A stretch of DNA of 64,000 bases, from the NCBI RefSeq assembly GCF_003790525.1, contig NZ_CP033635.1; one strand, written 5' to 3'. How positions within the stretch are numbered: position 1 is the first letter of the stretch; each line of letters begins with the position of its first letter. The stretch is from Escherichia coli. Lineage in GTDB: Bacteria; Pseudomonadota; Gammaproteobacteria; Enterobacterales; Enterobacteriaceae. Positions 45,501-48,500 of the stretch are shown piece after piece. A program made the position numbers.

Positions 45501-48500
45501 AGGAACACAGGTACGATCCGGCTCGCCCATTTCCTGACCCAGGCCCGCTTCTTCTACTACGTTGCCCAGAATATCCATTGCAAACACCGAGGCCGGGAAA
45601 TAACACCCTTTCTCGAGCTTCTTCAGGCTTGAAACAGGAATACGTTTTCCACGGAAGCAACCATTCAAATCGGTAAGTAAAACATCAACATATTGCGTAT
45701 TCGGGTAGCGCTCCAGGTAGCGTTTCACTTCCTGCGTAAAGGCGCTACCCCGCCTCTCTTCTGACTGCTGAACAAAGTTCTCTACTTCAACGATATTGGT
45801 TTCCATGATTCTTCGCCTTTGGTTTGTTTTCCGCTCGTTATCAAAGCGTAAAATATAATGACCACTATTCGAATCTGTATGCAAACTAAATGTTTGTCAA
45901 ATGTTAAATTGAGTTTGCAAAAATGAAAAACCACTGCTAGATTGAAAAAATATTGAACATAAAGGTCATTTAAAGCGCAGTAATGGCGATAATTTAGTCC
46001 ACTTTGTGAGATTGAGCATGGAAAATATAATGAACAATCCGGTTATCGGTGTCGTAATGTGCAGGAACAGGCTTAAGGGTCATGCGACCCAGACTCTGCA
46101 AGAAAAGTACCTGAATGCCATCATCCACGCAGGCGGTTTGCCAATAGCGCTACCACATGCGCTGGCGGAACCGTCGTTACTTGAACAACTTTTGCCGAAA
46201 CTCGATGGTATTTATCTTCCTGGTAGTCCCAGCAATGTGCAGCCGCACCTATATGGTGAAAACGGCGATGAGCCTGACGCCGATCCCGGGCGTGATCTTC
46301 TGAGCATGGCGTTAATTAATGCCGCACTCGAAAGGCGCATCCCCATTTTCGCCATCTGCCGGGGTTTACAGGAACTGGTGGTGGCAACCGGTGGTTCGTT
46401 GCATCGCAAGCTGTGCGAACAGCCTGAATTGCTGGAACATCGGGAAGATCCCGAACTGCCGGTGGAGCAGCAATATGCACCGTCGCATGAAGTTCAGGTT
46501 GAAGAGGGGGGATTGCTGTCTGCGTTGTTACCTGAATGTAGCAACTTTTGGGTAAACTCTCTGCATGGACAAGGGGCGAAGGTCGTTAGCCCACGGTTGC
46601 GTGTTGAAGCTCGCTCGCCGGATGGCTTAGTTGAGGCGGTTAGCGTCATCAATCATCCTTTTGCGCTGGGCGTACAGTGGCACCCGGAGTGGAACAGTAG
46701 CGAGTACGCGCTTTCGCGTATATTGTTCGAGGGCTTTATCACCGCTTGTCAGCACCATATCGCTGAAAAACAGCGACTCTGACCACTACAGTTTAAGGAA
46801 ATGCAAATATGAGTGATGAGGGACTGGCGCCAGGAAAACGCTTGTCGGAAATCCGCCAGCAGCAGGGGCTTTCACAACGTCGTGCCGCCGAACTCTCCGG
46901 GCTGACTCACAGTGCTATCAGTACGATAGAACAAGATAAAGTCAGCCCTGCCATCAGTACGCTGCAAAAGCTGCTGAAGGTGTATGGTCTGTCACTCTCG
47001 GAATTCTTTTCCGAGCCGGAAAAACCTGATGAGCCGCAGGTCGTCATTAATCAGGACGACTTAATTGAGATGGGCAGTCAGGGTGTGTCAATGAAGCTGG
47101 TTCATAACGGTAACCCGAATCGCACGCTGGCGATGATCTTTGAAACGTACCAGCCGGGCACAACCACTGGGGAAAGAATTAAGCATCAGGGTGAGGAAAT
47201 AGGCACTGTACTGGAAGGTGAAATTGTTCTGACGATTAATGGTCAGGATTATCATCTCGTCGCGGGGCAAAGTTATGCCATTAATACCGGCATCCCGCAC
47301 AGTTTCAGTAATACGTCGGCAGGTATTTGCCGAATTATCAGCGCCCATACGCCCACCACGTTTTAATCTTTTTGTTCTGTAAGCCGGGTAAGCGCAATGC
47401 GCCCGGCAATCCATAAAGAATGTCGCCAGAAATAAACGGGCATACGGCCCGGGGATCTCTGCGCCCTGACGTTCACAAACTGCATATATCTGATAGACGT
47501 GAAACAGGAGTCATAATGAATTTTCATCATCTGGCTTACTGGCAGGATAAAGCGTTAAGTCTCGCCATTGAAACCCGCTTATTTATTAACGGTGAATATA
47601 CTGCTGCGGCGGAAAATGAAACTTTTGAAACCGTTGATCCGGTCACCCAGGCACCGCTGGCGAAAATTGCCCGCGGCAAGAGCGTCGATATCGACCGTGC
47701 GGTGAGCGCAGCACGCGGCGTATTTGAACGCGGCGACTGGTCACTCTCTTCTCCGGCTAAACGTAAAGCGGTACTGAATAAACTCGCCGATTTAATGGAA
47801 GCTAACGCTGAAGAACTGGCGCTGCTGGAAACGCTCGACACCGGCAAACCGATTCGTCACAGCCTGCGTGATGATATTCCCGGCGCGGCGCGCGCCATTC
47901 GCTGGTACGCCGAAGCGATCGACAAAGTGTATGGCGAAGTGGCGACCACCAGTAGCCATGAGCTGGCGATGATCGTGCGTGAACCGGTCGGCGTGATTGC
48001 CGCCATCGTGCCGTGGAACTTCCCGCTGCTGCTGACTTGCTGGAAACTCGGCCCGGCGCTGGCGGCGGGAAACAGCGTGATTCTAAAACCGTCTGAAAAA
48101 TCACCGCTCAGTGCGATTCGTCTCGCGGGGCTGGCGAAAGAAGCGGGGCTGCCGGATGGTGTGTTGAACGTGGTGACGGGTTTTGGTCATGAAGCCGGGC
48201 AGGCGCTTTCGCGCCATAACGATATCGATGCCATTGCCTTTACTGGCTCAACCCGCACCGGGAAACAGCTGCTGAAGGACGCGGGCGACAGCAACATGAA
48301 ACGCGTCTGGCTGGAGGCGGGCGGCAAAAGCGCCAACATCGTTTTCGCCGACTGCCCGGATTTACAACAGGCAGCAAGCGCCACCGCAGCAGGCATTTTC
48401 TACAACCAGGGCCAGGTGTGCATCGCCGGAACGCGTTTGTTGCTGGAAGAGAGCATCGCCGATGAATTCTTAGCCCTGTTAAAACAGCAGGCGCAAAACT

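What the first reader, a model, noticed from the sequence alone, without database searches (positions are those of the whole stretch)
45807..46017. Divergent puuA / puuD control region with short palindromes
The 210-bp AT-rich region between puuA and puuD contains caaac-taaat-gtttg and tttgcaaa palindromes, likely repressor or global-regulator sites for the putrescine-utilisation divergon. This is expected biology, noted for completeness.
Basis: partly seen in the sequence, partly recalled or inferred. Interest (0 to 1): 0.15.

Follow-up and report, generated by a model that had tools for sequence, protein, structure and literature searches.

The report
Known puuA–puuD promoter and operator region

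Summary
The window is E. coli SMS-3-5. Positions 45807-46017 are the 211-bp, 33% GC spacer between divergent puuA and puuD-puuR, differing from K-12 at 2 bases. They are no commoner than in shuffled sequence and are not conserved as dyads in 41 other enterobacterial species.

They lie inside a published four-direct-repeat ArcA site (45879-45921; Park 2013 ChIP). That site covers the puuD -35 hexamer (TTGCAA 45915-45920; TSS mapped at 45950) and a perfect minus-strand TTGACA (45895-45900), the likely puuA -35.

The probable PuuR operators are four other AT-rich 20-mers: 45846-65, 45941-60, 45983-46002 and 46018-37. They are the best motif matches in the 64 kb and are conserved in sequence and spacing from Escherichia to Serratia. 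Together they give a dyad-symmetric consensus with TGG-N12-CCA arms.

The region is already known and ordinary. "Control region with a global-regulator site" holds. "Palindromes are repressor sites" does not. The PuuR footprint paper (Nemoto 2012) could not be read here, so equating the four boxes with its footprints is inference.

The parts
45807..46017 (.). puuA-puuD intergenic control region (211 bp, 33% GC)
   Evidence: Annotation of the identical SMS-3-5 record. Differs from K-12 MG1655 at 2 bases in 281 (45866, 45930). 95-100% identical in 4371 of 5426 complete E. coli genomes.
44388..45806 (-). puuA (glutamate-putrescine ligase)
   Evidence: Annotation; Pfam Gln-synt_C, E 2e-106.
46018..46782 (+). 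puuD (gamma-glutamyl-GABA hydrolase)
   Evidence: Annotation; Pfam Peptidase_C26 from residue 8. A conserved GAGG-type Shine-Dalgarno sequence lies 7-8 nt upstream of this ATG in the orthologs.
46809..47366 (+). puuR, the pathway repressor (XRE helix-turn-helix + cupin)
   Evidence: Annotation; Pfam HTH_3 residues 13-66 and Cupin_2 residues 111-178. Present downstream of puuD in 39 of the 41 orthologous loci; in the other two (L037, L043) the fetched DNA ends inside puuD.
45846..45865 (.). PuuR-type box S1, GCGTAAAATATAATGACCAC, over the puuA promoter/TSS region
   Evidence: 1 mismatch to the 15-mer AAAATATAATGAACA. Ranks 3rd of ~64,000 positions with a matrix built from the other three box classes. 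Conserved block in 42 sequences.
45941..45960 (.). PuuR-type box S2, ATTGAAAAAATATTGAACAT, at -9 to +11 of the puuD TSS
   Evidence: 2 mismatches to the 15-mer. Leave-one-class-out rank 3. Nearly invariant block.
45983..46002 (.). PuuR-type box S3, ATGGCGATAATTTAGTCCAC, at +34 to +53 of the puuD transcript; the weakest match
   Evidence: Missed by the 15-mer scan. 17.1 bits with the matrix built from non-Escherichia orthologs. 10.3 bits, rank 7 of ~64,000, when its own class is left out. ATAATTTAGTCCA is conserved in most species.
46018..46037 (.).
   Evidence: Exact match to the 15-mer. Best hit in the window. The operator is kept while the encoded N-terminus changes between clades, MENIMNN against MGNIFDK.
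45879..45921 (+). ArcA-P array of four direct repeats: DR1 45879-89, DR2 45890-900, DR3 45901-11, DR4 45912-21; core ArcA box 45890-45907
   Evidence: The 43-mer is identical to Park 2013 Table S4. ChIP peak centres 1359011/1359020 map to window 45885/45894. My matrix from 114 other ArcA boxes scores the core 14.0 bits, rank 3 in the window. The orthologous box scores 9.9-17.3 bits in all 42 sequences. DR2-DR3 spacing is 11 bp in 42/42.
   Evidence: 17-bp spacer to TAGATT in 42/42 sequences; TTG kept in 39/42. Position is -35 to -30 of the mapped TSS.
45938..45943 (+). puuD promoter -10 hexamer TAGATT
   Evidence: TAGATT in 38/42 sequences; -12 to -7 of the mapped TSS.
45950..45950 (+). puuD transcription start site (68-nt leader)
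   Evidence: Kim et al. 2012 (PMC3415461) TSS table: 1359076 in U00096.2 with the upstream 51-mer, which maps to window 45950. A sigma70 ChIP peak at 1359070 is 8-fold stronger aerobically. An RpoS holoenzyme SELEX peak at 1359040 maps to window 45914.
45895..45900 (-). Candidate puuA -35 hexamer TTGACA (promoter P1), inside ArcA DR2. Inferred, no TSS data.
   Evidence: Perfect consensus; TTGACA in 29/42 and TTGnnA in 41/42 sequences.
45872..45877 (-). Candidate puuA -10 hexamer CAGATT (P1), 17 bp from TTGACA; predicts a TSS near 45865. Inferred.
   Evidence: [C/T]AnnnT in 42/42 sequences at fixed spacing. Alternative P2: TTGCAT 45884-45879, 18 bp, CATTAT 45860-45855.
45882..45896 (.).
   Evidence: Present. 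Not above chance. Not conserved as a dyad.
45914..45921 (.).

Best explanation
The spacer holds two back-to-back promoters whose -35 hexamers are 14 bp apart. One is puuDp (TTGCAA-17-TAGATT, TSS 45950, mapped). The other is puuAp on the opposite strand, most likely TTGACA-17-CAGATT with a TSS near 45865 (inferred).

Two repressors act on it.

(1) Phospho-ArcA binds an array of four direct repeats with 11-bp register (45879-45921). The array covers both -35 hexamers, so it shuts both genes when the quinone pool is reduced, as in anaerobiosis. Binding and the 15-fold (puuA) and 11-fold (puuDR) derepression in an arcA mutant are published for the identical K-12 sequence. The -35 occlusion mechanism is inferred from position.

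(2) PuuR, an XRE-HTH/cupin protein encoded just downstream of puuD, binds four AT-rich pseudo-palindromic 20-mers, probably as a dimer. S1 lies over the puuA start region, S2 over the puuD -10/+1, and S3 and S4 in the puuD leader and start codon. Putrescine releases it. Repression and putrescine release are published. The exact box assignment is my inference from motif repetition, conservation and position.

GTTTG is the start of ArcA DR2. CAAAC is a freely varying stretch of weak DR1. TTTGCAAA is the -35 hexamer TTGCAA with its flanks.
For: - Identity of the locus and of the K-12 sequence.
- ArcA: Park 2013 supplement lists the ChIP peak, the 43-mer, the -70..-28 position and the fold changes. 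An independent matrix scores the core box 14.0 bits, rank 3 in 64 kb, and the same matrix ranks the region just upstream of acnA, which Park lists as ArcA-repressed, as the best hit in the window. The box is kept in all 42 orthologs at 9.9-17.3 bits with invariant 11-bp register.
- puuDp: TSS from Kim 2012; sigma70 ChIP peak 251 aerobic against 30 anaerobic; RpoS SELEX peak; hexamers and the 17-bp spacer conserved in 42/42.
- PuuR boxes: the only 0-, 1- and 2-mismatch matches to AAAATATAATGAACA in 64 kb are the three at 46022, 45850 and 45945. A matrix built only from non-Escherichia orthologs ranks S4, S2, S1 and S3 as the top four loci. Leave-one-class-out ranks are 1, 3, 3 and 7 of ~64,000 positions. 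Four boxes sit at the same places in 40 of 42 sequences. Spacings are conserved to +/-1 bp. The joint matrix is dyad-symmetric, r = 0.88 against 0.12-0.33 for shifted registers.
- A secondary source says the spacer holds four PuuR motifs (PMC9951944). PuuR has HTH_3 plus Cupin_2 domains. The family member PsdR binds a palindrome as a dimer (PMC10965056).
Against: - The primary PuuR footprint paper (Nemoto 2012, J Bacteriol 194:3437) is not in the library. The 15-mer consensus I used as a seed is from my memory of that work. Equating S1-S4 with its four footprints is therefore inference.
- S3 is weak when its own class is left out (10.3 bits).
- The ortholog-based matrices share ancestry with the E. 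coli sites, so they measure conservation rather than independent recurrence.
- No TSS for puuA was found in any source I could read. A second candidate promoter (TTGCAT-18-CATTAT) fits about as well.
- 5% of shuffled spacers reach the ArcA box score, so the sequence match alone is modest. The ChIP data and the conservation carry the ArcA claim.
- A 2025 paper states that the PuuR site is not palindromic and that nothing shows PuuR to be dimeric (PMC12645834).
Confidence: 0.85

Rival explanations
1. One reading: the two short palindromes are dyad operators for the pathway repressor PuuR, which as a helix-turn-helix protein would be expected to bind palindromes.
For: They lie between the two regulated genes, upstream of both start codons. 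XRE-cupin relatives bind palindromes.
Against: Neither palindrome resembles the repeated 20-mer motif. With the PuuR matrices nothing in 45879-45921 scores among the top hits. The dyads are at or below chance frequency. The left arm of palindrome 1 drifts freely with no compensating change. Both lie upstream of the -10 elements, whereas S1 and S2 sit on the start sites.
Confidence: 0.04
2. The palindromes, or the overlapping TAAAT-GTTT-GTCAA at 45887-45900, are a site for FNR or another dimeric global regulator (CRP family) that mediates the oxygen response.
For: A review cites Partridge et al. 2006 for 'FNR and ArcA recognition sites' in this spacer (PMC9397018). The best FNR-like match in the region (7/10) overlaps palindrome 1.
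Against: No match better than 7 of 10 to TTGAT-N4-ATCAA or to the CRP consensus. The term search found no puuA/puuD entry in the FNR ChIP peak, predicted-site or fnr-dependent expression tables of Myers 2013, nor in its H-NS and IHF tables. The conserved bases follow the ArcA direct-repeat pattern TGTT-N7-TGTTA.
Confidence: 0.06
3. The inverted repeats, including the longer TGCAAACTAAAT / ATTGAGTTTGCA pair (45880-91 and 45908-19), act structurally as a cruciform or as an RNA hairpin.
For: 12-nt arms, 92% complementary, 16 nt apart.
Against: The repeat lies upstream of the mapped puuD TSS and of both candidate puuA starts, so it is not expected in either mRNA. Its 7-bp core arms are fully complementary in only 9 of 42 sequences. 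No Rfam family matches the region. The symmetry is explained by each promoter carrying a TTGCA-type -35-like hexamer facing outwards.
Confidence: 0.02

Closest known systems
E. coli K-12 puuA-puuD intergenic control region (PuuR: Nemoto et al. 2012; ArcA: Park et al. 2013; FNR/ArcA proposal: Partridge et al. 2006)
   Same: The same locus. 279 of 281 bases are identical, including every box, hexamer and direct repeat discussed here. Gene order is the same: puuP-ymjE-puuA <-> puuD-puuR-puuC-puuB-puuE.
   Different: Two SNPs outside all assigned elements: 45866 T for C and 45930 A for C.
XRE-cupin local repressors of Pseudomonas (PauR, PsdR; Trouillon 2021, PMC7901475; PMC10965056)
   Same: The same two-domain architecture. 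Each represses neighbouring catabolic genes and is released by a pathway metabolite; PauR and PuuR both respond to putrescine. PsdR binds a palindrome as a dimer, which fits the dyad symmetry found here for the PuuR boxes.
   Different: A different recognition sequence: TTAAG-N5-CTTAA for PsdR against TGG-N12-CCA arms around AATATATT here. Here four operators are spread over 190 bp and one lies inside the coding sequence.
Multi-direct-repeat ArcA operators (for example astC, fumC, betT, cyoA; Park 2013 Table S4)
   Same: Three to four TGTTA-like repeats in 11-bp register overlapping a promoter, acting as a repressor site.
   Different: Only DR3 is strong (11.7 bits; the others are 1.4-2.7 bits). 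The array sits between two divergent promoters and covers both -35 hexamers.

Membership tests
puuA-puuD control region of E. coli (PuuR regulon) | Lies between divergently transcribed puuA and puuD, with puuR next to puuD | tested here: met
   Annotation and Pfam. The same layout is found in 41 other enterobacterial species.
puuA-puuD control region of E. coli (PuuR regulon) | Sequence identity to the experimentally studied K-12 region | tested here: met
   2 differences in 281 aligned bases.
PuuR operator | Four copies of the PuuR recognition motif in the spacer | tested here: met
   Four related 20-mers are the top-ranking loci in 64 kb. 'Four DNA-binding motifs' is stated in PMC9951944. 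The motif seed is from memory of Nemoto 2012.
PuuR operator | DNase I protection by PuuR, relieved by putrescine | not testable with these tools
   Published for K-12 according to secondary sources. The primary paper is not held.
ArcA-P operator | Two or more TGTTA-like direct repeats with 11-bp centre-to-centre spacing that match the ArcA box matrix | tested here: met
   14.0 bits at 45890-45907 with the puuD box left out of the matrix; rank 3 in the window. 11-bp register in 42/42 sequences. 9.9-17.3 bits in all orthologs.
ArcA-P operator | In vivo ArcA occupancy and ArcA-dependent expression | not testable with these tools
   Published for the identical K-12 43-mer: ChIP-chip/seq peak, puuA 15.3-fold and puuDR 10.6-fold (Park 2013 supplement).
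FNR site | TTGAT-N4-ATCAA with few mismatches, plus an FNR ChIP peak | tested here: not met
   Best match is 7/10. The term search found no puu entry in the FNR peak or predicted-site tables of Myers 2013.
   Observed 1 against 3.5 expected (P 0.93), and 2 against 1.3 expected (P 0.38).
   Perfect dyad in 13/42 and 19/42 sequences; only one arm of each is conserved; no compensating change.
Sigma70/sigmaS promoter (puuDp) | -35 and -10 hexamers at 17 bp, correctly placed upstream of a mapped TSS | tested here: met
   TTGCAA-17-TAGATT at -35 and -12 of the Kim 2012 TSS. Sigma70 ChIP and RpoS SELEX peaks.
Sigma70/sigmaS promoter (puuAp) | Hexamers upstream of a mapped TSS | tested here: inconclusive
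   Two candidates: TTGACA-17-CAGATT and TTGCAT-18-CATTAT. No TSS was found in the sources readable here.

The most novel reading that the evidence does not exclude
PuuR recognises a dyad-symmetric 20-bp operator (TGG-N12-CCA arms around an AATATATT core) as a dimer. The four operators then act as one cooperative or looped complex that clamps both promoters. Their spacing is fixed to +/-1 bp from Escherichia to Serratia: 95 bp and 41-42 bp, about 9 and 4 helical turns, with one species carrying a 10-bp insertion. This would contradict a 2025 statement that the PuuR site is non-palindromic and that nothing points to a dimer (PMC12645834). It would also explain why an operator is kept inside the first codons of puuD.
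Probability: 0.4. Interest if true: 0.3.

Novelty: already known. Interest (0 to 1): 0.1.

Why it matters
It matters little for discovery. The locus, its repressor PuuR and its ArcA control are published, and the window sequence is essentially the K-12 sequence.

The useful outcome is a corrected base-level map. The eye-catching palindromes are not the operators. The conserved signals are four PuuR-type boxes, one of them in the puuD coding start, and an ArcA direct-repeat array over two back-to-back -35 hexamers. That map is directly useful to people who cut this spacer into PuuR-based putrescine biosensor promoters. The comparison across 42 sequences also suggests that the PuuR site is dyad-symmetric with conserved phasing, which is cheap to test.

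Tried and rejected
- Reading the primary footprint paper (Nemoto 2012) by DOI and by PMC id: not held.
- Full-text searches for the motif strings AAAATATAATGAACA and CAATATATTG: no paper found.
- Looking for a puuA TSS. Park 2013 says 'no TSS'. Kim 2012 lists only puuD, puuP and internal puuR starts, and nothing for the K. pneumoniae orthologs. The Conway 2014 supplement is not held. The Ettwiller 2016 tables hold no coordinate near the predictions. Thomason 2015 is not held.
- Consensus scans for FNR, CRP, Nac, NtrC, sigma54 and IHF in 45780-46060: nothing better than 7/10, so rejected as explanations. A whole-window FNR scan at 3 mismatches was uninformative.
- Rfam at a permissive threshold: only a sub-threshold CRISPR-repeat chance hit.
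- The simple promoter scanner missed puuDp (8/12 matches) and reported only TTGTGA-16-TATAAT at 46004-46031, which overlaps S4. I do not treat that as the puuD promoter because the mapped TSS is at 45950.
- A second ArcA-like box at 45835-45852 (12.7 bits): rejected as a conserved element because it exists only in Escherichia.
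Full report
**What the sequence is.**
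Megablast of window 45000-47400 gives 100% identity to the E. coli SMS-3-5 chromosome, and the stretch is present in 4371 of 5426 complete E. coli genomes. The annotation of that record gives, in window coordinates:
- puuA 44388-45806 (-)
- puuD 46018-46782 (+)
- puuR 46809-47366 (+)
- then puuC, puuB and puuE, with puuP and ymjE beyond puuA.

Pfam confirms the proteins. PuuA is a glutamine-synthetase-type ligase. PuuD is a Peptidase_C26 amidotransferase. PuuR has an HTH_3 domain (residues 13-66) and a Cupin_2 domain (111-178). The spacer is therefore exactly 45807-46017, 211 bp, at 33% GC against about 51% for the window. Against K-12 MG1655 the 281 bases around it differ at two positions, 45866 and 45930. 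Published K-12 data therefore transfer base for base.

**Checking the observation.**
Both palindromes are present where stated: CAAACTAAATGTTTG at 45882-45896 and TTTGCAAA at 45914-45921. They are not unusual. In 2000 dinucleotide-preserving shuffles of the spacer, perfect inverted repeats with arms of at least 5 and loops up to 8 occur 3.5 times on average against 1 observed. Perfect 8-bp palindromes occur 1.3 times against 2 observed; the other one is ATTCGAAT at 45867.

I fetched the orthologous divergent puuA/puuD spacer from 41 other enterobacterial species with one genome-collection scan using PuuD and aligned them. The species include Escherichia, Klebsiella, Raoultella, Citrobacter, Enterobacter, Pluralibacter, Cedecea, Buttiauxella, Yokenella, Franconibacter, Hafnia, Erwinia and Serratia.
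- The 5+5 dyad is perfect in 13 of 42 sequences. Its left arm has 12 variants. Its right arm is GTTTG (30) or GTTTT (11). Where the right arm changes, the left does not compensate.
- TTTGCAAA is a perfect palindrome in 19 of 42 sequences, and only TTTG is kept.
- The longer inverted repeat found by the repeat tool (45880-91 / 45908-19) has fully complementary 7-bp cores in only 9 of 42.

The symmetry as such is therefore neither statistically nor evolutionarily supported.

**What occupies those bases: ArcA.**
The supplement of Park et al. 2013 (PMC3798270) lists the following:
- an ArcA ChIP-chip/ChIP-seq peak 'puuD/puuA' at 1359011/1359020 (U00096.2);
- an 18-bp ArcA box, atgtttgtcaaatgttaa, at 14 bits;
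- a four-direct-repeat site, 1359005-1359047, ATGCAAACTAAATGTTTGTCAAATGTTAAATTGAGTTTGCAAA, with repeat scores 2.6, 2.7, 11.7 and 1.4 bits, placed at -70 to -28 of the puuDR start;
- 15.3-fold (puuA) and 10.6-fold (puuDR) derepression in an arcA mutant.

As an independent check I built a matrix from 114 other ArcA boxes in their Table S3, leaving the puuD box out.
- It scores 45890-45907 at 14.0 bits, third best of all positions in the 64 kb.
- The best hit in the window lies just upstream of acnA, a gene Park lists as ArcA-repressed.
- 5% of shuffled spacers reach 14 bits, so the sequence match alone is modest.
- The orthologous box scores 9.9-17.3 bits in all 42 sequences.
- The TGTT-N7-TGTTA register is 11 bp in 42 of 42.

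**What occupies those bases: promoters.**
Kim et al. 2012 (PMC3415461) map the puuD TSS at 1359076 with a 68-nt leader and print the upstream 51-mer. This is window 45950. TAGATT (45938-43) is then at -12 to -7, and TTGCAA (45915-20) is at -35 to -30. The 17-bp spacer is kept in 42 of 42 sequences and TAGATT in 38 of 42. TTTGCAAA is therefore the puuD -35 hexamer with one flanking base on each side.

Other published data agree:
- Myers et al. 2013 (PMC3688515, Table S2) report a sigma70 ChIP peak at 1359070, 251 aerobically against 30 anaerobically.
- Shimada et al. 2017 (PMC5493296) report an RpoS-holoenzyme SELEX peak at 1359040, which is window 45914.

On the other strand a perfect TTGACA lies at 45900-45895, inside ArcA DR2. 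It is TTGACA in 29 of 42 sequences and TTGnnA in 41. It is followed after 17 bp by CAGATT (45877-45872), where positions 2 and 6 (A, T) are invariant in 42 of 42. This is my preferred puuA promoter, predicting a TSS near 45865. A second candidate, TTGCAT-18-CATTAT (45884-79 / 45860-55), is also fairly well conserved. No puuA TSS could be found in readable sources, so this part is inference. Either way the ArcA array covers the -35 hexamers of both divergent promoters, which lie 14 bp apart. That accounts for the joint anaerobic repression.

**Where PuuR most likely binds.**
The repeat finder shows a direct-repeat family:
- AAAATATAATGACCA at 45850
- AAAAAATATTGAACA at 45945
- AAAATATAATGAACA at 46022

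From memory, AAAATATAATGAACA is the PuuR recognition consensus of Nemoto et al. 2012. That paper is not in the library. A secondary source confirms only that the spacer holds four PuuR motifs (PMC9951944). In the whole 64 kb the only matches with 0, 1 or 2 mismatches are these three.

The alignment shows that each sits in a strongly conserved block. It also reveals a fourth conserved block, tTGGCAATAATTTAGTCCA at 45983-46001. Extended to 20-mers, the boxes are:
- S1 45846-65
- S2 45941-60
- S3 45983-46002
- S4 46018-37

Three tests support these four boxes:
- A matrix built only from the non-Escherichia orthologs ranks them as the four best loci in the window, at 23.6, 21.6, 18.5 and 17.1 bits; the next best is 15.9.
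- With each class left out in turn, the left-out E. coli site ranks 3rd, 3rd, 7th and 1st of about 64,000 positions.
- Four boxes occur at the same places in 40 of 42 sequences.

The joint matrix reads aTGgnnAAnATAtTgnaCAn. It correlates with its own reverse complement at r = 0.88, against 0.12-0.33 in shifted registers. In other words, it has TGG-N12-CCA arms around an AT core. This dyad symmetry fits the family: the XRE-cupin protein PsdR binds a palindrome as a dimer (PMC10965056). It disagrees with a 2025 statement that the PuuR site is not palindromic (PMC12645834).

Relative to the puuD TSS, the boxes lie as follows:
- S2 spans -9 to +11.
- S3 spans +34 to +53.
- S4 spans +69 to +88, covering the start codon and codons 2-7.
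- S1 covers the predicted puuA start region.

Start-to-start spacings are 95 bp (38 of 42 sequences), 41-42 bp (40 of 42; one species has 51 after a 10-bp duplication) and 34-35 bp. It is kept even though the encoded N-terminus differs between clades (MENIMNN against MGNIFDK), and the Pfam domain begins only at residue 8.

**Other candidates, rejected.**
No FNR or CRP consensus match better than 7 of 10 exists in 45780-46060, and there are no Nac, NtrC, sigma54 or IHF patterns. A review cites Partridge 2006 for an FNR site here. However, a term search found no puuA/puuD entry in the FNR ChIP, predicted-site and fnr-expression tables of Myers 2013, nor in its H-NS and IHF tables. No Rfam family matches. 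The palindromes lie upstream of both transcription starts, so an RNA structure is not expected.

**How it most likely works.**
When oxygen is scarce, ArcA-P fills the direct-repeat array and occludes both -35 hexamers. Binding and effect are published; the occlusion mechanism is inferred. When putrescine is scarce, PuuR sits on S1 and S2 over the two start sites, and on S3 and S4 within the puuD leader and start codon. Putrescine releases it. Repression and release are published; the box assignment, dimer binding and any cooperation between boxes are inferred. Sigma70 or sigmaS polymerase then fires both promoters.

**Verdict.**
It is wrong in treating the palindromes as the operators, and probably wrong for PuuR. 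Everything essential is already known for K-12, so interest is low. The only mildly new points are the dyad-symmetric cross-species PuuR consensus, the tightly conserved operator spacing, and a natural deletion between two PuuR boxes, listed under noticed in passing.

Noticed in passing
L082 (E. coli EM18-18-42, NZ_CP063473.1) 2501-2600, equivalent to window 45865-46036: This strain carries a 172-bp deletion whose junction lies inside the near-identical PuuR boxes S1 and S4 (...GCGTAAAATATAATGACCA|ATCCGGTTATCGG...). It removes both promoters, the ArcA array, S2 and S3. It looks like recombination between the two direct repeats, or an assembly artefact. puuD is annotated there from the second ATG.
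   Followed up: partly
window 46525-46565 (inside puuD): Kim 2012 lists internal transcription starts assigned to puuR at 1359392 and 1359691 (window 46266 and 46565). Myers 2013 lists a sigma70 ChIP peak 'within puuD' (window about 46539, aerobic 275 against 132). A 12.7-bit ArcA-like box, TTGTTACCTGAATGTAGC, lies at 46525-46542 just upstream. This may be a separate puuR promoter.
   Followed up: partly
window 45835-45852: A second ArcA-like box, TCGTTATCAAAGCGTAAA (12.7 bits, rank 6 in the window), lies in the puuA leader next to S1. It is recognisable only in Escherichia and Pseudocitrobacter (7.9-12.7 bits, at least 10 bits in two sequences) and is absent in the other genera.
   Followed up: yes
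window 13381-13398 and 12584-12601: These are the two best ArcA-matrix hits in the window (18.0 and 17.0 bits). The first lies between acnA and ymiC, just upstream of acnA, which Park 2013 lists as ArcA-repressed. The second lies between cysB and ymiA.
   Followed up: partly
window 45000-47400 against the E. coli genome collection: The puu locus is found in 4371 of 5426 complete E. coli genomes, so about a fifth lack it. Six of the matching places are on records labelled as plasmids.
   Followed up: no
window 46004-46031: A promoter-like TTGTGA-16-TATAAT (10/12 matches) overlaps the puuD start codon and PuuR box S4. Its TTG is not conserved outside Escherichia, and it would start transcription downstream of both candidate start codons.
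   Followed up: partly
window 46018-46038 and orthologs L013-L046: The first seven codons of puuD encode different peptides in different clades (MENIMNN against MGNIFDK), while the PuuR-type box in the DNA is kept. K. pneumoniae MGH78578 puuD is annotated from the second ATG (753 nt).
   Followed up: partly
L028, L029, L034, L042 (Serratia), position equivalent to window ~45909-45928: Some Serratia species have a fifth PuuR-like box (for example TTGGTTTGAATATTGTCCAC, 11-13 bits) lying over the puuD -35 hexamer.
   Followed up: no
L015 (Buttiauxella sp. A111), between the S2 and S3 equivalents: A 10-bp tandem duplication (ATATTGAACG ATATTGAGCA) lengthens the S2-S3 distance from 41 to 51 bp, one helical turn.
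   Followed up: no
Only TCGA is partly conserved.
   Followed up: partly
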